DNA of 62,230 nt, filler included, from Sphacelaria rigidula (Eukaryota), in NCBI GenBank assembly GCA_964200075.2. It is 9 parts of 9 records of this genome, joined end to end, with 100 filler letters (N's around TTAATTAATTAA, not from the genome) between each part and the next. Parts side by side here need not be neighbours in the genome. Positions count along the whole stretch, not along the records: positions 41,556 to 48,380 come from CAXNAA020017892.1; 8 more parts are not named here. One strand, written 5' to 3'. This document shows positions 1,310 to 48,067 of the stretch, one piece after another. Positions within the stretch are counted from its first letter, which is position 1. Each line of letters begins with the position of its first letter. A program made the position numbers and the translations under genes. The notes beneath the pieces were generated by a model that was given only the letters and a program-made list of their open reading frames with translations, was not told the DNA's origin and did no database searches.

Positions 1310-3730
1310 TAGGTAACAATGGTGGCTAGAGTCTACAGCACCCCCAAAGTTCTCTACTACCAACAAGTAGTTACATCAGAGCTTGACAAACTCAGACATC
1401 ATTGGTGCCTGATAGGACCGTCGTTTCCCGCAAAGAATAGCTATCTCATCCGCTGCTTTCGACAACAGCTCCATACAAGCTTGCCCCACTTCCAAACACG
1501 AAGAACTCGCAAGAGATCCCAAGAAAATATCGTCCATCATGAACATGCAATCACGCTACTTGCATCACTTCGAGTTACAAAAGCGATAGCTAGCGCCAAA
1601 TTCTCAAATCTTCGCCCAAAACAAGTCTCTCGACTCTTCATCGGCACGAAACCGGAAATATCAGCGAACGTCCAATTCCAGAGCATTCGTGACTCATCGT
1701 CCCTCTCATCCAAGACAAGGTACTTGTCAACATACAAAATGCACTCCGCATCGTACGGCGGCGACGACAGTGAAGCATCGATTGACATGGTGCAAAGCGC
1801 TGGGGCCGCAGGAGGGATGGGTTCTCGATACAGCATCGCACTAAAAGAATTGTACGGTGATAGTACCCGAGAAGGCGCTGATGGATCGCGGACTAGTGGT
1901 GGCCAACTCGTGGTTGTCACATCGTGAACGTGGGCGAATGATGCGTGACATTGTTCATACCTTGCAGATCATCATGCAGGAAGGGAGACGCGATGCTGAT
2001 GCCTGGGTGGGTTTGGTACTTGCCGTGCAGTGGGCATTGCACACTGATTTTTTGGACTGCTGTGATAGCTGTAGCTGTATCTATGATGCGGGGAGCAACA
2101 CCACGGTGTGGACGAGATTATAGCCGGAGAGCTGCTGTTTCTCAGGAGCGGGCTGGAGGACTACAAAGAAGGTATTACCTGAGGTGCTTGCTGTTGTGGT
2201 GACCGCCGAGTTGGTTGCTGATGTTGAGGAGCAAGTGCTGAGGTGAATGAGTGCTTGTTGAGAATGAGGAAACACATAATGACTGGTATTCGCGAATCGT
2301 TTTGATAATGATTGCAGCTTGTTATTGTGTGGTTTGTGGTCATGCTTGCGCATGAAACATGGTTGTTGAGCGAGCATGATTGTATCGCATGTGCAGGGTG
2401 AAATTCTGGCGTACACGTGGATATTTCAGATGTGTGTGTGTTGTGCTGATCTGGTTGGCACGGAAGATGTATGGTGTTTGCTGCGAGGAAGGTGGCATCG
2501 CGTGTGCTGAGTGAAATAAATGCTAGCATGCATGTGTGGAATTTCCGCTACATTATGTTACTGCGCATGGTAACTGGCGAAGAGTCAGGGTGAGGAAAAA
2601 TTTAATATACTGCTGTATGCTGGATGAGATGAACTTCGTATATTCCTGCTCACACAGACCCGCGGCGGAGTTCTCGTTGTGCGGTTTGTGGGCCCTGACT
2701 GTAGGAGATGGTGATTGCTGCTATTGGCGTTAAAATGCGTAGGCTCGTATGTGCGTAATGAAAGCACGAGTGTTTCTTGTGGTTGAAAATGACTGATCTT
2801 TGGCTATGGAACTTCTTTTGAGGGAATATTTCATTTCCGTCTGGAAGATCATTTGTCTCAGGAAGCGGTGCAGGTGAGCTGCAAGTCTGTTGGGATATGA
2901 ACTGCATTTTACGTCGCGGTTGGTTGACTGATGGAATATCACGGTCCTGAATCCAATTTGGAATATTTTATCTGGGTGCTTTCTGGGGTGTACTCGGTAA
3001 TAACGAGTTTGAGAACAATATCACTACGGGTGAATCAATGATGGCGGAGGTCGAGACCCGTTTGCCGTTATCGGATTGGTATAAATGGCTTGATCAGCGG
3101 TTTGAGTTATGGCTTCTTCTTTTTTTTTGGTATGCTCATCAGTTGAGTGGGGCAATGAAGCATTCACAAAGAAAGGGTGTGCGAGGCATACCATTTCACG
3201 GAGTTAAACAAGCAAGAGGCCAGCTGCGTTCTAGATGTGTTGGATACTTATTTGATTCTAGTTTCAGGTATATTTCTTGGCTGTTGTTCTCCATTGCGCA
3301 GGTGTTGAACGTACGAAAGAGGAATTTGTCGGTTGACCGGTATCGAATGCGAGAGACGAATTGTCACCATGGCTTCAGAATTTGAAGTTCGTTGACTTTT
3401 ACATTTTTTGCCGGTTTGGAGTCAGGAGACTTGTTTGAGGCATGGGTTCGAAAATTGAGCGTCAGCTATCGCTCCATGACTCGCAGCGACGCAAGTAGCA
3501 TGATTGCGTGTTTAGGATGGACGTTTTGGATCTCTTGCGAATTGTTCGGAAATGGGACAAGCTTGTTCGGCTGTTATCATATTCAGCAGTAGGGAATGCC
3601 ATTCTATGTGAAAAATGACGGTAGACTTCAGCAACATGATGTCTGAGTTTATCAAGCTCTAGCTTGACTACTTCTTGGTGGTAAGCGAGCTTTGGGGGTG
3701 CTGTAGACTCCGGGCAACATTGTTACCTTG
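1310..3730. repeat. Diverged inverted duplication, arms about 1310-1690 and 3360-3730
   Basis: aggtaacaatg...gagtctacagcacccccaaag...agagcttga(c/t)aaactcagacatcat occurs on opposite strands. ORF-track peptides TRSDASSVIAC and TRSDASSMIAC confirm it. Confidence 0.75.
1775..2290 (+). mobile_element. Degenerate Ty3/Gypsy integrase core
   Basis: Broken peptide TWCKALGPQEGWVLDTASH*KN ... VANSW...RMMRDIVHTLQIIMQEGRR...WVGLVLAVQWALHT resembles rve motifs (W..FG.P...SD...F; NG..ER; W...L..VQ.ALNT). Confidence 0.65.
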
Positions 3731-4029
3731 ATTGAGTACATGACTGCAGTGGAAAAAATGCATAGCAGGCGTTTATAGGCTGGTTGATGGATAACCGGTC
3801 TGAGAGTATGATCGGTGGACTCTATGATGTATGATGTTTGCATACGAGATGCGGAGGTTACTTCCGATAACGAAGACTGTGTGTTTGTAAACAACAACTG
3901 TCTTGAAGTCTCCAAGCCCTAGTGGGGGAGGAAGCCCTTGGAGTAGTCTTATGACCTTGTTCCGAGTTCAGGAGGGCTCTGTAGGGCCTATTCAACTCTT
4001 ACAAGCCAACCCCTCCATAGGTGGACTGA

Positions 4030-6417: not shown

Positions 6418-6700
6418 CCAACATGAGCCGTGGCTATCTCTGGAAGTTGCGATACCAGAAAATGAAGCAACTCATTGTAGGCTGTCATCCAAATGCATGA
6501 TCATCAGCAGGCTTCGGGCCNNNNNNNNNNGCCCAACAATCTTAGCAGGAGGCAGCTCACCCTCATGCGACTGGCCGAACACGCCATGACGCTTCGTGCT
6601 TGGTAATTGATTGCGAGCCTGGTCCGGCTTTGTAGGGATACGTCAATGGTCTGATGACTATGCATGCATGATCATGAGTACACCCTCCCGCGCGCCCATT
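6418..6700 (+). mobile_element. 5'-truncated family S copy
   Basis: Shares gccgtggct..ctctggaagt..gcgataccagaaaatgaagcaactcatt and ends tcatgagtacaccc. Confidence 0.7.
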
Positions 6701-6749
6701 CGCACCTCTAACGGTGAGGCAGGCTTTCGTAGTGGTTACGGTAAGCCGT

Positions 6750-6826
6750 GTGTGACGGTTTAAGAGACAACCAACTGGACTACTGACCGGTCAGCGCTGA
6801 CTAGTCAGTAGTCCAGTTGGTTGTCT
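6750..6826. repeat. Family T1-related AGCGCT-centred hairpin at the contig end
   Basis: agacaaccaactggactactgac-cggtcagcgctgactag-tcagtagtccagttggttgtct is a near-perfect palindrome. Confidence 0.65.
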
Positions 6827-6926
6827 NNNNNNNNNNNNNNNNNNNNNNNNNNNNNNNNNNNNNNNNNNNNTTAATTAATTAANNNNNNNNNNNNNNNNNN
6901 NNNNNNNNNNNNNNNNNNNNNNNNNN
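6827..6926. other. Artificial contig-joining spacer (also at 13753, 20679, 27605, 34531, 41456, 48381, 55306)
   Basis: Identical N44-TTAATTAATTAA-N44 linker (stops in all six frames) between equal-length segments. Confidence 0.97.
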
Positions 6927-6927
6927 C

Positions 6928-7095
6928 AATCACCAAGCGCGAAGCGCCGTGGTGTGTTCGGCGAGTCGCATAAAGGGTGAGCTTCACCCTGCTAAGATTG
7001 TTCGGCCCGAAGCCTACTGACTCATTTGCATTTGGATGACAGCCTCCTATCAGTTGCTGTACTATTTGGTATCGTAACTCCCAGAAATAGCAACG
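6928..7095 (-). mobile_element. Family S internal fragment
   Basis: Reverse complement of the family S core (caatcaccaagcgcgaagcgccgtggtgtg...). Confidence 0.65.
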
Positions 7096-7201
7096 GCTTA
7101 ACCACTACCTCATGGCTGTCTCAAAATTATCCAGGGATACGGCAACAACCTTCGGCTACTGAGCTACACTGCAGGGAACAGAGCCAACAAGACGAACACT
7201 G

Positions 7202-7404
7202 CAAGGGCAGGTCGAGTAGAGTATACTCAAATGCGAGGTATCTTGAAAGAGGTACTTGGTACTCAAACTAGGGTAGAGTAGTGGGAGTCGTACCCCCAAA
7301 ATAACTGGAGAACAATCCTTGAAACCCTACCCCCAATTTATATACTTCAAGTACGACTTTCAAAATACCCTGCAGTTGAGTATACTCTACTCGTCCTACC
7401 CTTG
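7202..7404. mobile_element. MITE of TIR family H (8-bp TSD; hAT- or P-like)
   Basis: TIR CAAGGGCAGGTCGAGTAGAGTATACTCAA. TSD GAACACTG / GAACCCTG (7 of 8 match). Confidence 0.8.
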
Positions 7405-41555: not shown

Positions 41556-43735
41556 ATTTTGTCAACGGAGGGGGTGAGGTGGAGCAGGAATCATCATCAT
41601 CATCATCATCATCATCAACGCCAACATCAGCGCAGACACCGATACCTACGCCGACGCAGACACCAGCGCAGACGCCGACACCTACGCCGACGCCGACACC
41701 TACGCCGAGGCTCACACCGGCATCGGACACTGCCTCGTCGCCCGCACTGTGACCCGTTTCCACGGGTCCCTCGCAAGATGGCGGGGGGGGGGGCGGCGAT
41801 GCTCCTCAACTCCCGAGGACCGAGCAACGCCGTCATGCGTGGGCTGACCGGTTACCAACACCTAGGGCGGGGCGTACGAGGAGCCAAACGCGCGAGGCAA
41901 TGGGGTCGGTACACGCACGAGACGAAACGCTGGCGGCTGGCGGAGCGGAGGAGAGCAAAAAAGAAGCGGAGATGGCGCTGGCGGGAATGGCGGAGGACAA
42001 ATGCTCGACCATGGAGATGATCACCGCAGCAGTAGGAGAGGTGGCTGGACAAGACGCAATCGCTTCGACTCAACACGAGTTAGCTGTAAACGAGTTTTTT
42101 TGTTTTGGTGCTAAGGAAAACAGGGTAGGGCAGCCTGAATTCGGTTTGCCTACACCGGTTGACCTACACGTGAGCAAAACAGGGGCAGCACCAACCATTA
42201 TGGATGACATTGCCAAGTCAGAATTTCGAGAGGCATGGTTAGGCGCGATGCAGGCCGAGCTAGGATGTCACGAAAAGGCTGGAACATTTTCGACTGGCCC
42301 TGTACCGGAAGTAGCAAACGTGATCTCAGCGAAGTGGGTCTTTAGTTGGAAAACCGACGCAGATGGTACTATAACGAAGGCAAAGGCAAGGTTGGTAGCG
42401 CGAGGATTTGGACAACGTTTTGCAATCGACTATTTCGAGACTTTCGCGGCAACGCCCTCCATGGCCTCCATCAAACTGGTCATGGCGGTGGCAGTTCAGG
42501 AAGAGTGGCCGCTGTACCATTTTGATGTGACACAGGCTTTTGTTCAAGCAGAAATGGATACTGAAGTGTACATGAGATTGCCTGAAGGATGCTCCTTTTT
42601 GACAGACGTGACCGTGAAGCTTGAAAAATCTATTTCCGGGATCAAGCAAGCGGGCAGGCAGTGGTTTCGTCTTCTGTGCCAAACTTTGCTGAAGGATGTC
42701 GGGATGGTGCAGTGTGAAGCTGACCCATGTGTATTCAAGATGGAGGATGCAGGACAAGTACGTGTGATTTTAGTTGTCCATGTAGACGACATCCTCATCA
42801 GTGGTTCTGAGGAATACGTAGGAACGGTGGGCCAAATCATCAACAAAAAGTTCCCCACGAAAACTCTCGGAGAGGTCACCTGGTACTTGGGGTGCGCAGT
42901 GGATAGAGACTGGGATAGAGTCACGCTGTCTGTGACGCAAACCACGTTCACGGACACGCTCCTAAAGCGTTTTGAGGTGAGGGGGTACTCAGAACTCCCT
43001 AACTCTGTTCCTGCAAATTTAGGGCCGACAACGAGCGAAGACAAAAAGGTGAATCGCCCATACCGTAACGCAGTGGGGGGTTGATGCGGCTGGCAACAAT
43101 CACCAGACCCGACATCGCGAATTCGGTACGAGCGATTGCTCGCCAGTCGCATGACCCATGCAAGAGGCACTGGGAAGCTGTTATGAAGGTTCTGAAGTAT
43201 CTGAATGAGACGAAGAAGTGAGGACTTACGTTCAAGAAAGCTCATGATGGGCTCTCGGTCTACTGCGATGCAGATTACGCCATGAAGGAAACGGATAAGC
43301 GTTCGGTTTCAGGGGTAGCCGTGATGTACGGTGGTGTGGTAGTGTCGGCAACGAGCCGCATGCAACACTGCGCAACTCTGTCAACTACGGAGGCAGAGTA
43401 TGTTGCAATGGTCGAGGGGGTAAAGGAGGGATTGTTGGTGAAGGCAGTGTTGGTGTTCTTGCGAGCGCAGACTGTGTCGGGAAGCGGGGAAAATAAAAGG
43501 AATTATTTTGTACGAGGACAACGAGGGAGCAAAAGCTCTGGCCGAAAATCCTCTCAGTTCCGAAAAGAGTTAGCACATTGACGTGAGATATCACTTCATT
43601 CGAGAGCTGGTGGGGACGGGAAAGATCAGGGTTGTACATGTAGGCTCAGGATGGTAGCATGCAGGTATTTTGACGAAGCCTCTTTCGATCAGCCTATTTA
43701 CGAGGAACATACGTTCTTTTATAAACTTGGAAAGT
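41556..43735 (+). mobile_element. Ty1/Copia LTR retrotransposon pol (linker, RT, RNase H), pseudogenised
   Basis: Motifs WLGAMQAEL, KWVFSWKTD..KAKARLVARGFGQ, FDVTQAFVQA, GIKQAGRQW, HVDD, YRNAVG, TRPDIA, YCDADYA, LSTTEAEYVA, YEDNEGA, HIDVRYHFIRE. Frameshift in a G-run near 43080, plus further stops and a frameshift. The linker encodes S- and TP-rich repeats (41590-41710). Confidence 0.95.
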
Positions 43736-44025
43736 GACAAGTATGTACGTTTGTTTTGTGTGTACCATTGTGCTCGTGCTGGGTATTATTAGATGTTCAA
43801 GTGATGCATTTATGCGCATTTTGGGTCAAGCCACCCACGCTACTCTGAGGGGCATGGGTTTTGTAGGGCGTTTCCTGACATGTCGTGTATCTGCCTTGAC
43901 CGCCGTCCGTGGATTATCAAGGTGGTACACAAGCTGTTGAGGGGAGGAGGTTTTTGCCCGGATGGCCGGATTTTCCTCTTGAAAACAAAATTGAGAGAGA
44001 AAAAGCCACGACGACTGATGTACCG

Positions 44026-44270
44026 GTTCAGAGGGGGTGTGCATGTGAACAGGTACACTGAGTGAACATGCACATGTGCGGATAGATTAATGCGGGCGTG
44101 CGGGTACGGTTAGTCCCGTGTGTGTGACTACAGTACCACCCAGGCTGGCAACCACGCTACCACCTGGGAACACTCAACATCTATTCCCTCAGTCATAGGG
44201 TCGACTCAGTTTAGGCACTCTCCACTAATACAAAAGATATAACTATGTACCCTTCGCCACGGGCCACGGA
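44026..44270 (+). mobile_element. Possible polypurine tract and 3' LTR of the Copia element
   Basis: AGAGGGGG is followed directly by TGTG at about 44038, downstream of RNase H. No second LTR is present in this contig to confirm it. Confidence 0.3.
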
Positions 44271-44271
44271 C

Positions 44272-45043
44272 TAGAATCGAACAGTTTATCAATTGAACCA
44301 GTGAGCGCTCACTGGTACAATGGGCAAACTGTTCGCTTCCTGAACAAACGATATGCGGTTCGAATCCCGGCATGATCGATTGTGGAAGAAACGAGTTTGA
44401 CATGTGGGCAGTAAGGCTTGCGAGGGGCACGAGGCCCCGGAGATCCCTGATGTGCCATGCCGGGATGGACCACGAAACATATCTTTTGTTCAGGAACCGA
44501 ACAGTTTATCCATCGAACAAGTGAGCGCTCACTAGTTCGATGGATAAACTGTTCGGTTCCTGAACACAAGATGCCCGGTTCGACCCCGGCGGGCATGATC
44601 ATTTGTGGAAGAAACGAGTTTGACATGTGAACAGTGAGGCTTGCGAGGGGCACGAGGCCCCGGAGATCTCTGATGTGTCATGCCGGGATGGACCACGCAA
44701 CATATATTTTGTTCAGGAACCGAACAGTTTGTCCATCGAACAAGTGAGCGATGCCGGGATGGACCACGCAACATATCTTTTGTTCAAGAAGCGAACAGCT
44801 TATCCATCGAACCAGTGAGCGCTCACTCGTTCGATGGATAAACTGTTCGGTTCCTGAACAAAATATATGTTGCGTGGTCCATCCCGGCATGACACATCAG
44901 GGATCTCCGGGGCCTCGTGCCCCTCGCAAGCCTCACTGTTCACATGTCAAACTCGTTCCTTCCACAAATGATCATGCCCGCCGGGGTCGAACCGGGCATC
45001 TTGTGTTCAGGAACCGAACAGTTTATCCATTGAACCAGTGAGC
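44272..45043. repeat. Array of ~220-bp units with tRNA-like termini joined at AGCGCT hairpins (family T2)
   Basis: Units at about 44307-44526 and 44527-44750, a partial unit at 44751-44820, and an inverted unit at 44821-45043. Junction palindromes at 44304-44309, 44524-44529 and 44818-44823. Confidence 0.8.
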
Positions 45044-45044
45044 G

Positions 45045-45240
45045 GGAGTTAAGACTGGTGTCCGTGATGATCCAGACCAGAAGCTGCTCGAGATGGAGGA
45101 AATTGCACGTAACCTGAATTCATACGAGGAGCATGAACGATTAAGCGAAAACCATATTCTCTTGAAATTCCTCAACGCGTTGCCTTTCGAGTATCACATC
45201 CAGAAGCAACTACTCGAGGATCGAGAGGGACCGTTGACAC
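45045..45240 (+). mobile_element. Copia-type gag fragment
   Basis: DDPDQKLLEMEEIARNLNSYEEHERLSENHILLKFLNALPFEYHIQKQLLE fits the Copia gag (UBN2-like) pattern with L..LP.EY. Confidence 0.6.
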
Positions 45241-47915
45241 ACAACCTGCGGCCAATCACTGCGGGAAACAAAGTCCACATCAAGCCACGTCACATCAGCT
45301 TCCGCTATGAACGTTTTAGCGTCCACTCTGAAGTTTCAACGCTTCTACTCTGCACTCTGACTCCATGATCAGAAACAAAATCTTCCGAAACTCTTTAATG
45401 CCGGGATATTATCTCGGAGTAATGTTTTGAGGAAAAGTGATCCGACTCATCAGTTGCCTGACCCTTTGGCTGCGAGATTTTACTCTGGCTAATGAATCGG
45501 CATCACTCTTGCTTGAAACAATGTCGTGTCCCAGAGCCAGGAAACAAACCACGAACGTTGGGAGTGTTTCATGCTGAAAGTTCCGGTATTGTTTCCTGTA
45601 AATTACTCCTTATATATACCGGAGTCTCAGGTTTGATATGCCTCTGTTGTGTATGAGCTAATCACCTCTCAGGGTATGTACTATTTTGTGGCAGTCCGCC
45701 GCAAAAAGGGTGAATGGCTACCAGCTGCCCACGGAAAAATATTCGTCTGTGGCTCTTAGCTGTCCACGCGAAAACATGTTTTTGTAGCTCTCTGTCCCTC
45801 TCTAGACCACCCGCTCACCACCCCCTCTCTCCACCGCATAACGAAGGAGCGAGGCGACCGTTGTATACAAAGAAGACATATTGATCAAGATTTCACAAAA
45901 GGTTGAAAAACGACGCATCTTTTTCGTAAAACTAGTCGGTCGACCGCCAGTGGCGAGTACTGAATGGTGGTGACAAGGTCACACGATGGGTGCAGTTGTT
46001 AGACCTCGCAAGGGTCGAGGAACACCTGTGCCGTCTCGCCGCGTCGATGGGTTGCGGCAACATCCCGTCTACCTGAGGGCGTCAAGACAACAATCGCCAA
46101 CATCGATGTTCTGCAGGGAAATCGGCTCTGCAAAGTCCCGCTAACCCCAAAGGCCATGCGATATTTCAAATGGTGTACGCTTTGAAAAGGTCCAGACGCT
46201 ATGGATGCCGGAGTCCGTGCGGATAGGGAAAAGCTTGCATGAAAGGAAGCCGCAGAAGTTCTCGTCCGTGGCCACGAAGAGTTGTCGAAAGAGTTTGATA
46301 CATCTATTGGCCGGAAAATATGGTGACAGGAGAGGCGACCCAGTAAAAATACTTTCTGATACCCATCTGGCCAGCGGTGCGGTGTCGCCCATACTCTTCA
46401 CAGTACGTAACATATCTTGGCTGAACCGTACGACGGCAGAAAACGCGGGTTGATATGCGCCTTGTGGTACCCCTCTGGTCACTGGTGCTGTGTTGCTTAA
46501 ATATCAATACTTGATATTGAAGACAGTGCGAATATTGGCCTATCAATATATATTATGCTCAGATGCCTTCGGAGATATTGAAGCGGCAATATATATTCCT
46601 CGTGTCATGATCACAAAGTAATGCATGGCAATATATATTGGACACGTTTTTTCTCCGGGAACACAACATTCAATTTATATTGTGCATGTCGGCCGTGTAT
46701 ATATTCAAGTGTCAATATATATGGAGTCGAAGCGATGCACAGCATATTATTGTCACAATATGTATTGAGCAAAAAAACATGCAAGAGTTGTCTTTCCAAT
46801 ATGTATTGCACTCGCTCATTAGAGAGTTTCGGAAAACGTTTTTTCAAATCTTAGTCAGAGTGGAAGGAAAAGTAGCCGGTAAGGATGCACTTTCCGCTAT
46901 GAGGTTGTTTTCAGATAGATTTTTTCAGAATCAGAGTGCCGTTCGCACCACTTCACTCTGAAAACCACTGTTCCTCTTCAGAGCTCATAGCGGAATGAAG
47001 AAGAACCACACCTACCTTCACCGCCATGGTCACGTCCAGTCCAAAGTCAACACACCCTAACCAGCAAAGTGGGACATCCATCATCCATCAAAACTGCCAT
47101 ACGCATCACAATGGGCCATTCACGAAGTAGAAAAGCTTGGCATGGCAATCAGAAGACCTCCCTGATGCCGCCATGGTATCAGCATTCGCTTGGTTGTGTT
47201 GCGTGAATATTCAAATGCTCGACGGGCACACGTTGACTTGGGTGCAGTTCCTCACTATTGCCAGCCTCAGTTGGAAGAAGACGGTGGGAACGATTCGTAG
47301 TCTACAACGCACAAGCAGTACTACACCTGGCTACATTGCCATTTCGTTAGAGTTCATAACTTCTTGGACCACACTCATCGGTGGCATGTTGGGAAATCAT
47401 CACGATGCGGCCTTGTCTATTGTTTGAAAGTGCTGCCTACTACTGTACTGTTGTGCTGCTGTATTACTGTACAACTGACTGTCTGTACGGCATCGCTGTA
47501 GTTCACCGTACCGCGATGTATTGTTGTAGGGTTTTGCATTGCACTCTCTATACTGCACTGGCTGTACTCTACACTGAACAACCCCGACAGAACTACAGTA
47601 CCCTGTGGTGCACCGTGGTGGATCGAAGTACTACAGGTGCAATGAAGCGTGGTGTACGGCACGTACGGTGCCGCAGGGTATGGAACAGCAAATGCTGTGT
47701 TGACTGGTGCATTTTCGGACTGCACCTGACCGCACGCTGAGCGATCGCACATTTATTTGGCGGCACAATCTGCGGCCAATCACGGGGGGGAATTTTTTTT
47801 CACATCAAGCGACGTCACATCAGCTTCCGCTATGAACGTTTTAGCGTCCACTCTGAAGTTTCGACGCTTCCACTCTGCACTCTGACTCTATGATCAGAAA
47901 CAAAATCTTCCGAAA
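45239..47915 (+). repeat. ~155-bp direct repeat pair (45239-45392 and 47764-47915)
   Basis: cacatcaagc.acgtcacatcagcttccgctatgaacgttttagcgtccactctgaagtttc...gatcagaaacaaaatcttccgaaa is near-identical in both copies. Confidence 0.8.
46190..46815 (+). repeat. Second copy of the same core followed by AATATATATT repeats
   Basis: Homologous to 8520-8830. Here the minisatellite lies on the 3' side (46520-46810). Confidence 0.7.
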
Positions 47916-48067
47916 ATCTCTATTGCATAGCTATTGTGCAGCCAATGTATATATTGGACACGCTCGCGGAGGACCATATTGAGCGTTTTCGACATCTGGT
48001 TATGTATCTTTCAATAGCGACAAAGTTCAGGCTCACGCGAATCGTACTGCCGCAAGGGCGGAGGCTC

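What the first reader, a model, noticed from the sequence alone, without database searches (positions are those of the whole stretch)
44272..45043. Concatemer of double-headed tRNA-like units joined at AGCGCT hairpins (family T2)
Seen: each ~220-bp unit starts GCTCAC-TAGTTCGATGG-ATAA-ACTGTTCGG-TTCCTGA-ACACAAGATGCCC-GGTTCGACCCC. That gives an A-box/D-loop, a CCT anticodon-like loop and a B-box/T-loop, resembling tRNA-Arg(CCT). The far end of each unit carries a more eroded copy of the same head on the opposite strand. Units are fused at GTGAGCGCTCAC palindromes, in direct and then inverted orientation. Known: SINEs normally have one tRNA head and a tail, and MITE TIRs are not normally tRNA-derived. 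Inference: this may be an undescribed repeat type, either a tRNA-derived TIR element or one amplified through hairpin intermediates. Convergent Pol III transcription could produce dsRNA or siRNA.
Basis: partly seen in the sequence, partly recalled or inferred. Interest (0 to 1): 0.72.

Follow-up and report, generated by a model that had tools for sequence, protein, structure and literature searches.

The report
Tandem transposon-like repeats with tRNA-like ends
This is a short broken array of a very abundant, non-coding, transposon-like repeat from an alga; its inverted ends look faintly like a tRNA and form long palindromes, which is a curious variant of a common kind of element, not a new kind of gene.

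Summary
Window 44274-45043 contains three full ~220-bp units (A and B direct, C inverted) and two partial ones. Three junctions are palindromes centred on AGCGCT. Each unit has 40-46-nt near-perfect terminal inverted repeats that weaken out to about 75 nt.

The tRNA likeness is real but weak. ARAGORN at default settings and Rfam (E<=10) report no tRNA. However, a tRNA model I built and ARAGORN at relaxed thresholds both rank these heads as the most tRNA-like sequences in the 62-kb window. An exact B box sits at tRNA spacing and varies only at its two free positions.

A sister family (T1, 15227-15707) has the same design. Its ends are 88-nt palindromes with TG...CA termini flanked by GGCC.

Contigs from public runs show the T2 family in hundreds of contig variants in one organism.

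Best reading: a MITE/foldback-like mobile element carrying a degenerate tRNA-like module, locally duplicated and inverted through its self-complementary ends. The sequence argues against convergent Pol III transcription producing dsRNA, and nothing here tests hairpin amplification. Repbase and Dfam could not be searched.

The parts
44274..44306 (.). Partial arm (33 nt). It is the left half of the first AGCGCT-centred palindrome. Its distal ~7 nt do not match the family.
   Evidence: (I11)
44307..44526 (+). Unit A (220 nt), the diverged copy (88% to B). Its arm variant (...CGCTTCC...) is the commonest one among the public contigs.
   Evidence: other-letter table (44497 and 45014, C>G in nearly all contigs)
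44527..44749 (+). Unit B (223 nt), used as the reference unit. Its head at 44525-44597 is the only ARAGORN hit in the window at the 90% threshold.
44750..44820 (+). Partial unit: the right-end 71 nt only. Together with the start of unit C it forms a 2 x 70-nt palindrome.
   Evidence: period 71; I5
44821..45043 (-). Unit C (223 nt), inverted, 97% identical to B. It ends exactly at a palindrome centre and abuts an unrelated high-copy repeat.
44357..44367 (+). Exact B-box match GGTTCGAATCC (unit A)
44577..44587 (+). Exact B-box match GGTTCGACCCC (unit B)
44983..44993 (-). Exact B-box match GGTTCGACCCC (unit C)
44484..44487 (+). The only T4 run of unit A, just before its right arm. Possible Pol III terminator (inferred).
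44707..44710 (+). The only T4 run of unit B, just before its right arm
44860..44863 (-). The only T4 run of unit C (reads AAAA on the + strand)
44307..44346 (+). 40-nt arm. At its distal end (44346), 59-67 contigs per run leave the window sequence for unrelated sequences. I take this as a boundary of the conserved module.
   Evidence: table 7
15227..15707 (.). Sister element T1. It has 88-nt palindromes (centre GTCAGC|GCTGAC) at both ends, two convergent heads each with an exact B box, termini TGTGACG...CGTCACA, and GGCC on both flanks.
6750..6826 (.). T1b: a third AGCGCT-centred palindrome of the T1 type. Its left arm also ends at TGTGACG. Its right arm is cut by a masked stretch. It can be at most 177 nt long.

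Best explanation
T2 is a high-copy, apparently lineage-restricted, non-coding mobile element of the terminal-inverted-repeat kind (MITE/foldback-like).

Its roughly 75-nt inverted ends are built from a degenerate tRNA-like module. The module has an A-box-like motif, a 5-bp/7-nt hairpin in the position of an anticodon arm, and, on the left end only, an exact B box at tRNA spacing.

The functional ends are palindromes: two 40-46-nt arms around AGCGCT. This is seen most clearly in the sister element T1, whose 88-nt palindromes end in TG...CA and are flanked by GGCC.

The stretch 44274-45043 is not a transposed concatemer. It is a broken local array. Because a terminal palindrome is its own reverse complement, exchange or template switching between two of them can either duplicate or invert the segment between them. 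That would give units that share palindromes and lie in both orientations.

What is shown: the anatomy, the abundance and the weak tRNA likeness. What is inferred: mobility by a DDE transposase or integrase supplied in trans, the recombination origin of the array, and Pol III activity of the left head.
For: Anatomy:
- Three full and two partial units with 40-46-nt inverted repeats at 85-95%.
- No coding capacity. The open frames simply run through the units. The 122-aa one had no relative. Of the 18 long window ORFs scanned, which did not include the frames inside the array, only the flanking reverse transcriptase matched a family.

Abundance: 3535-4006 contigs per run were laid on the 1.7-kb stretch in organism A and in an 'algae metagenome' from a second study. 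Of these, 620-717 fit two places of the stretch, which only T2 units allow.

Module boundary: 59-67 contigs per run diverge at 44346 into sequences with no consensus (agreement 0.34-0.35).

Sister family T1: same design. Three arms (two in T1, one in T1b) stop at the same TGTGACG next to unrelated flanks, and GGCC lies on both sides of T1. T1b can be at most 177 nt, so a palindrome can stand alone or nearly so.

Mixed ages in the array: A and the 71-nt piece are 88-91% to the rest, while B and C are 97% to each other.

tRNA likeness:
- B box: 6 matches in the window against 1.05 expected, 5 of them in T heads. The four variants differ only at the two free positions.
- ARAGORN at the 90% threshold gives one hit in the window, the unit B head (score 92.5). 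At 85%, 4 of 12 hits are T heads. On 3 Mb of random sequence the rates are 7.7 per Mb at >=92.5 and 123 per Mb at >=85.
- My tRNA model (19 phage T5 tRNAs; it finds held-out Ser, Leu, Tyr and pseudo-Gln at 24.5-42 bits) puts T2 heads at ranks 1-5. T heads take 7 of the top 8 and 8 of 19 hits at E<=10, with full-length hits on left heads placing model position 1 at the palindrome centre.
Against: - No T2 copy with both intact ends and host flanks is available, so no target-site duplication and no empty site is shown. Mobility is inferred.
- The GGCC beside T1 is a single case. It is itself palindromic, so it could equally be an extension of the repeat.
- No autonomous partner and no transposase or integrase was found in the window.
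- The divergence at 44346 could reflect varied internal sequences rather than host flanks. The contig tables cannot tell these apart.
- tRNA scores are sub-threshold everywhere: no tRNA from ARAGORN at default or from Rfam at E<=10. The best score from my model is 14.3 bits, E 0.065 on a rough calibration. That hit and two of the other T2 hits (ranks 1, 5 and 7) are far-end heads aligned with the T arm deleted. About 1.1 ARAGORN hits at >=90 are expected by chance in 62 kb.
- The T2 copies are not independent, so the real sample is two families.
- No listed contig spans the whole array.
Confidence: 0.55

Rival explanations
1. A SINE-like retroposon. The left head is an internal Pol III promoter. 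Transcripts run about 180 nt to the T4 run. The AGCGCT palindromes arise because the reverse transcriptase snaps back at the 5' end of the RNA and copies about 40 nt of its own cDNA.
For: The A-box-like motif at position 7 and the exact B box at positions 51-61 match tRNA spacing. There is a single sense-strand T4 run at unit positions 178-181 in all 3 units. The palindrome centre coincides with position 1 of the tRNA model.
Against: There is no A-rich, microsatellite or LINE-like 3' tail; the unit ends in an inverted repeat. Palindromes occur at both ends of T1, and their outer arms stop at the same base in three cases. That points to an inherited end, not one made anew at each insertion. The flank repeat beside T1 is 4 bp, which is short for LINE-driven insertion (general knowledge).
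Confidence: 0.13
2. A miniature LTR-like element (TRIM-like). The palindrome acts as a tiny terminal direct repeat with TG...CA ends that an integrase uses. Solo palindromes and arrays with shared repeats then arise as they do for LTR elements.
For: In T1 the palindromes are also 88-nt direct repeats 383 nt apart (D1). T1 has TG...CA ends flanked by 4-bp GGCC. T1b is short and possibly a solo palindrome. The T2 array shares palindromes between units. Copia-type reverse transcriptase lies next door.
Against: Next to the palindromes the strand carries the sense, not the antisense, of a tRNA 3' part, so there is no primer-binding site. No polypurine tract abuts the other repeat. The heads next to the palindromes are inverted, which suits a DNA transposon.
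Confidence: 0.1
3. A 223-bp satellite-like tandem repeat with internal dyad symmetry. It spreads by unequal exchange and segmental duplication and does not transpose.
For: There are 2.2 tandem copies at period 223 plus a 71-nt duplication. The contigs show many rearranged joints: skips of 71, 225 and 231 nt, and joints between opposite strands (table 5).
Against: T1 stands as a single unit between unrelated flanks. About 60 contigs per run leave at one boundary into sequences with no consensus. The array here holds only three full units, of mixed age.
Confidence: 0.1
4. One reading: amplification through hairpin or rolling-hairpin DNA intermediates gives head-to-head concatemers that then integrate.
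For: The junctions are perfect or near-perfect hairpin formers. Outer arms vary in length: 33, 40-46 and 70 nt in T2.
Against: A and B are head-to-tail, not head-to-head. The units differ in age (88% against 97%), which one concatemer would not show. No replication protein or extrachromosomal form is seen. No tool available here can test it.
Confidence: 0.06
5. An assembly artefact: repeat copies collapsed or folded back by the assembler.
For: Palindromes and high-copy repeats are error-prone in assembly. No listed contig spans the whole array.
Against: A 158-nt contig from run X1 covers 44701-44858 with 3 differences. A 181-nt contig covers the right junction 44985-45165 with 1 difference. 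The same palindrome design appears at three separate loci.
Confidence: 0.04

Closest known systems
MITEs (miniature inverted-repeat transposable elements; non-autonomous DNA transposons)
   Same: Small (220-470 bp), non-coding, high copy number, terminal inverted repeats, able to form long hairpins.
   Different: The inverted repeats are long (46-75 nt or more) and carry a tRNA-like module with an exact B box. The ends are themselves palindromes. No target-site duplication is shown for T2 and no autonomous partner is known.
tRNA-derived SINEs
   Same: A-box-like and B-box motifs at tRNA spacing, a body of about 120 nt, and a T4 run that could end a Pol III transcript.
   Different: No 3' tail. 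A second, inverted head. Palindromic ends. Scores against tRNA models are far below those of genuine tRNAs.
Foldback elements and arrays born from transposons (Tetris in Drosophila virilis, PMC4079207; tandem dimers from double insertion, PMC5932611; for both I saw the search listing and the start of the abstract only)
   Same: Inverted-repeat elements that turn into short tandem or inverted arrays.
   Different: In a double insertion a target duplication lies between the two copies. Here the units abut at a fixed AGCGCT that two families and three loci share, so it belongs to the element. The repeats are not built from sub-repeats.
Ginger1 DNA transposons (PMC2836005; passages read)
   Same: Inverted repeats within the 40-270 bp range, TGTNR termini (T1: TGTGA), and a 4-bp GC-rich palindromic flank repeat.
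   Different: The paper gives CCGG or CCGT/ACGG as the target, whereas T1 has GGCC (one case). T2 begins TGTTC, which fails the fifth base. No Gypsy-like integrase was found.
Cassandra TRIM retrotransposons carrying 5S RNA genes in their terminal repeats
   Same: A Pol III-type gene module sitting inside the terminal repeats of a miniature element.
   Different: Those are direct LTRs with a primer-binding site and a polypurine tract, and the module is 5S, not tRNA-like.
SINE domain carried by the MER6 DNA transposon (PMC6887750; search listing and start of abstract only)
   Same: Precedent for SINE-derived sequence travelling inside a non-autonomous DNA transposon.
   Different: There the SINE piece is an internal conserved domain, not the inverted repeat itself.

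Membership tests
tRNA gene or pseudogene (Rfam RF00005; ARAGORN) | Cloverleaf detected at standard thresholds | tested here: not met
   ARAGORN finds 0 in the window. Rfam gives no tRNA row at E<=10 on 44000-45300, 44520-44620 or 15200-15730. My model gives 7.5-14.3 bits against 43-74 bits for the T5 tRNAs it was trained on.
tRNA-derived SINE | Internal Pol III A and B boxes at tRNA spacing | tested here: inconclusive
   B box is exact at positions 51-61 in the 3 left heads. A box has 2-3 mismatches of 9 at position 7. Activity was not tested.
tRNA-derived SINE | 3' tail (A-rich, simple repeat or LINE-derived) and a single head | tested here: not met
   The unit ends in an inverted copy of the head. 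No A run or microsatellite is present.
MITE | Small, non-coding, with terminal inverted repeats | tested here: met
   220-223 bp. Inverted repeats 85-95% over 40 nt. No relative for the read-through ORF.
MITE | High copy number, dispersed | tested here: inconclusive
   620-717 contigs per run fit two places of the stretch, and about 60 per run diverge at one boundary. Contigs give no map positions, and no genome is held.
MITE | Target-site duplication of fixed length | tested here: inconclusive
   Both ends of the T2 array are broken. T1 has GGCC on both sides, a single case that is itself palindromic.
Ginger1 | TGTNR termini and a 4-bp CCGG or CCGT target duplication (PMC2836005) | tested here: inconclusive
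   T1 has TGTGA plus GGCC. T2 has TGTTC.
Ginger1 | Autonomous copy encoding a Gypsy-like integrase with the same termini | tested here: not met
   Within the window only: no further arms, and of 18 long ORFs scanned only RVT_2 matched. The genome could not be searched.
TRIM / LTR retrotransposon | Primer-binding site and polypurine tract next to the terminal repeats | tested here: not met
   Read directly from the sequence: next to the palindromes the strand carries tRNA-sense, not antisense, sequence.
Satellite DNA | Long head-to-tail arrays | tested here: inconclusive
   Only 2.2 copies here. Array lengths elsewhere in the genome are unknown.

The most novel reading that the evidence does not exclude
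T1 and T2 belong to an undescribed algal group of mobile elements. In it, a tRNA-derived Pol III unit is embedded in hairpin-forming palindromic terminal repeats with TG...CA ends. The elements are moved by an integrase-type enzyme. The palindromes behave like miniature LTRs, giving solo copies, arrays that share repeats, and inversions. This would be a hybrid of SINE, MITE and TRIM that spreads B-box (TFIIIC) sites and hairpin-forming sites through the genome.
Probability: 0.15. Interest if true: 0.7.

Novelty: new variant of a known kind. Interest (0 to 1): 0.4.

Why it matters
If the tRNA-like module is functional, these elements would scatter Pol III promoters or TFIIIC-binding B boxes across an algal genome by a DNA-transposon route instead of the usual SINE route. 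That bears on how Pol III sites and chromatin boundaries spread.

The 80-140-nt perfect palindromes are also likely hot spots for rearrangement, for hairpin RNA if read through, and for assembly errors.

If the likeness is only a relic, this is simply one more lineage-specific MITE family, and the array is an ordinary local rearrangement.

Tried and rejected
- No whole genome is held for this window. A census of copies, flanks and target duplications was therefore impossible.
- Exact-pattern scans for the T2 arm found nothing in metagenome contigs, genome contigs or viral contigs. A scan for the T1 centre and arm in metagenome contigs also found nothing.
- The search for homologous proteins with the 122-aa read-through frame: no hit. 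Only proteins of 67-214 residues were searched.
- No RNA holder was listed among the sequencing runs, so expression was not examined.
- Run X5 (organism B) gave only 7 contigs. The three that touch T2 or are near-identical to the window have depth 2.1-2.2, against 10-124 for the other four. I do not count them as evidence that organism B carries T2. They may be carry-over within the same study.
- Parts of the array without a listed high-identity contig are not counted as evidence either way.
- The Rfam microRNA rows (mir-8517, MIR1861 and others; 17-42 bits, all below their gathering scores of 52-100 bits) are generic hairpin matches to the palindromes.
- Pfam found nothing in the ORF right of the array (45042-45368) even at E<=5. 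My impression that it is gag-like rests on recall only.
- Earlier findings of this scan: nothing by place, sequence or words.
- Five of the six literature searches found no description of a transposon whose inverted repeats are tRNA-like. The sixth was a look-up of the Ginger transposon paper. These are word searches of an open-access library. They do not show that the family is unpublished, and Repbase and Dfam are not available here.
- I considered a target duplication hidden inside the junction (AGCGCT, GCGC or CG). I rejected it because the same centre recurs at 3 T2 junctions and 3 T1-type palindromes at unrelated loci.

Full report
**What is there.** The stretch was read directly. It was dissected with TRF, the repeat finder and a blastn of unit B against the whole window. 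The layout is:
- 44274-44306: a 33-nt partial arm.
- 44307-44526: unit A, + strand.
- 44527-44749: unit B, + strand, 223 nt.
- 44750-44820: a 71-nt piece that is only the right end of a unit, + strand.
- 44821-45043: unit C, - strand.

Pairwise identities are A/B 88%, A/C 89% and B/C 97%. The 71-nt piece is 90-91.5% identical to the right ends of A, B and C. The array is therefore a mixture of older and younger copies, not one concatemer.

The centre GTGAGC|GCTCAC lies at 44306|7, 44526|7 and 44820|1. The junction at 44749|50 is not palindromic.

Within a unit the two ends are inverted repeats: 85-95% over 40 nt, 85-91% over 46 nt and about 75% over 75 nt. No other copy of the unit or its arms lies in the window.

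The arm motif occurs 7 times against 0 expected. A scan for long palindromes found five in the window, all centred on AGCGCT and all at loci of this type. As single-stranded DNA the junctions fold at -45.7 and -69.9 kcal/mol, z = -15 and -18.

**Is it like a tRNA?** Standard detectors say no:
- ARAGORN finds no tRNA in the window.
- Rfam at E<=10 gives no tRNA row on 44000-45300, on a 101-nt slice of the unit B head, or on the sister locus. It gives only sub-threshold microRNA rows that reflect the hairpins.

(i) The B-box consensus occurs 6 times in the window against 1.05 expected. Five of the six are in T heads. The four variants (AT, CC, TC, TT) differ only at the two free positions.

(ii) ARAGORN at relaxed thresholds:
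- At 90% of its thresholds, the only hit in the window is the unit B head (44525-44597, score 92.5, read as Glu-TTC).
- At 85%, 12 hits appear. Four are T heads: unit A at 88.9, unit C at 87.9 and T1 at 89.1.
- On 3 Mb of random sequence with the window's dinucleotide make-up, the rates are 7.7 per Mb at >=92.5, 25.7 per Mb at >=89.1 and 123 per Mb at >=85.
- About one hit at >=90 is therefore expected somewhere in 62 kb. What is unlikely by chance is that the hits fall on these heads, starting at or within one base of the palindrome centre.

(iii) I built a covariance model from 19 annotated tRNAs of phage T5.
- It recovers held-out Ser, Leu, Tyr and pseudo-Gln tRNAs at 24.5-42 bits, and its own training set at 43-74 bits.
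- Run over the window with filters off, the top five hits are all T2 heads: 14.3, 11.4, 10.5, 10.4 and 9.1 bits, E 0.065-2.1.
- T1 or T2 heads take 7 of the top 8 hits and 8 of the 19 hits at E<=10. In the printed full-length alignments of the T2 heads, model position 1 lies one or two bases before the palindrome centre.
- In fairness, ranks 1, 5 and 7 are far-end heads aligned with the T arm deleted and a chance CCA. E-values from this model are rough. The T2 copies are not independent.

My reading is that the heads carry a real but badly degenerate tRNA-like module. It is compatible with old descent from a tRNA or a tRNA-derived SINE, but descent is not shown.

In units B and C the only good stem in the anticodon position gives the loop GGTTCCT (anticodon TTC). 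The Arg-CCT reading holds only for unit A, on a weaker stem.

**A sister family changes the picture.** The other B-box matches led me to 15227-15707. This element, T1, has an 88-nt palindrome centred on GTCAGC|GCTGAC at each end (15232-15319 and 15615-15702; -34 and -36 kcal/mol). Inside each palindrome lies a head with an exact B box, and the two heads converge.

The outer arms stop at TGTGACG...CGTCACA, next to unrelated flanks that both begin with GGCC.

A third palindrome of the same type (T1b, 6750-6826) has a left arm that stops at the same TGTGACG next to yet another flank. Its right side is hidden by a masked stretch. The space available there limits it to 177 nt.

In T1 the palindrome is therefore an inherited end of the element, not a by-product of joining two units. 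By analogy, the T2 ends would lie 40 nt out from AGCGCT, at TGTTCAGG...CCTGAACA.

The contig data fit this. The best-supported loose end inside T2 is at 44346, the distal end of a 40-nt arm. There, 59-67 contigs per run continue into sequences with no consensus (agreement 0.34-0.35). That table cannot distinguish host flanks from varied internal sequences, so this point is suggestive only.

**Abundance and reality.** Four runs were laid at 85% likeness.
- In organism A (X1, X2) and in an 'algae metagenome' from a second study (X4), 3535-4006 contigs fit the 1.7-kb stretch. Of these, 620-717 fit two places of it, which only T2 units allow.
- The flanks on both sides are high-copy repeats too.
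- Nearly all contigs differ from the window at 44349, 44497 and 45014. The commonest family variant is therefore closer to unit A in its arms.
- Joints in the contigs include a skip of exactly 71 nt, skips of about one unit, and several opposite-strand joints. Rearranged copies are common.
- A 158-nt contig of X1 covers 44701-44858 with 3 differences, which supports the 71-nt piece and its two junctions. No listed contig spans the whole array.
- Organism B (X5) gave 7 contigs. Those touching T2 have depth about 2, and I do not count them.

**How it most likely works.** I commit to a non-autonomous inverted-repeat element (MITE/foldback-like) with palindromic ends, at confidence 0.55.

A palindrome equals its own reverse complement. 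Two terminal palindromes are therefore at once direct and inverted repeats of each other. Exchange or template switching between them can either duplicate or invert the segment between them. That would yield exactly what is seen: units that share palindromes, in both orientations, and of mixed age. This step is inferred.

Both ends of the array are broken. The left arm has lost its distal ~7 nt, and the right end stops at a palindrome centre against an unrelated repeat.

The TG...CA ends and the 4-bp GC-rich palindromic flank of T1 recall integrase-type DDE enzymes. Ginger1 elements are described with inverted repeats of 40-270 bp, TGTNR ends and CCGG or CCGT duplications (PMC2836005, passages read). 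T1 fits loosely: TGTGA ends and GGCC, in one case. T2 starts TGTTC, which does not fit. No such enzyme was found in the window. I therefore offer Ginger1 as a lead, not a classification.

**Pol III and dsRNA.**
- Each T2 unit has one T4 run, on the sense strand only, at unit positions 178-181, immediately before the right arm. A transcript from the left head would therefore be about 180 nt long and would stop before the inverted arm.
- The far-end heads have lost the B box (3 mismatches).
- Units B and C, although they face each other, would both produce sense RNA, and each would stop before reaching the other.
- The right head of T1 carries TTTT at +48, between its A-box-like motif and its B box.

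Convergent Pol III transcription producing dsRNA is thus disfavoured by the sequence. Hairpin RNA from read-through by another polymerase remains possible but was not tested.

**Comparison and novelty.** The array as such is ordinary. Inverted-repeat elements are known to seed short tandem and inverted arrays (PMC5932611 and PMC4079207, listing and start of abstract only).

What is unusual is the end design shared by two families: AGCGCT-centred palindromes followed by a B box at tRNA spacing. My five searches for such a description found no element whose inverted repeats are tRNA-like. These are word searches of an open-access library, and Repbase and Dfam could not be consulted.

I rate it a new variant of a known kind, with interest 0.4.

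Noticed in passing
window 15227-15707: Sister element T1. It has 88-nt AGCGCT-centred palindromes at both ends, two convergent heads with exact B boxes (15335-15345 on +, 15591-15601 on -), TG...CA termini and GGCC on both flanks.
   Followed up: yes
window 6426-7098: A large imperfect inverted repeat (arms 6426-6609 and 6927-7098, 80-88% complementary). Its loop holds the T1b palindrome (6750-6826). There is a 10-N gap at 6521-6530.
   Followed up: partly
window 6827-6926 and every 6926 nt thereafter (13753, 20679, 27605, 34531, 41456, 48381, 55306): Regular 100-nt blocks of N44-TTAATTAATTAA-N44. They look like masks or spacers put into the window, not assembly gaps. The inverted repeat around the first block continues across it.
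   Followed up: partly
window 45240-45401 and 47764-47926: A ~155-bp repeat, 89% identical between its two copies. Its ends are sharply marked by loose ends of many contigs at 45240/45242 and 45394. It is another small high-copy element, inserted in the repeat to the right of the array.
   Followed up: partly
window 25687-27109 and 7206-7400: Tandem arrays with periods of 41 and 155 nt, built from small palindromic TACTCAAAATTTGAGTA-like units. A related inverted pair lies at 7206-7400.
   Followed up: no
window 41753-43084: Copia-type reverse transcriptase (RVT_2, E 1.4e-43) on the + strand, upstream of the array. The rest of the element looks degenerate. Of 18 long window ORFs scanned, this was the only one with a Pfam match.
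   Followed up: partly
window 15401-15412: Inside T1 there is a 12-nt stretch, GCGCTCACGGTA, which matches the start of the T2 unit A head apart from one missing base. It may be chance.
   Followed up: no
window 44038-44273: The left flank of the array is itself a very high-copy repeat. Summed contig depth there is several times that of T2. Twenty contigs in run X1 have a loose end at 44038.
   Followed up: no
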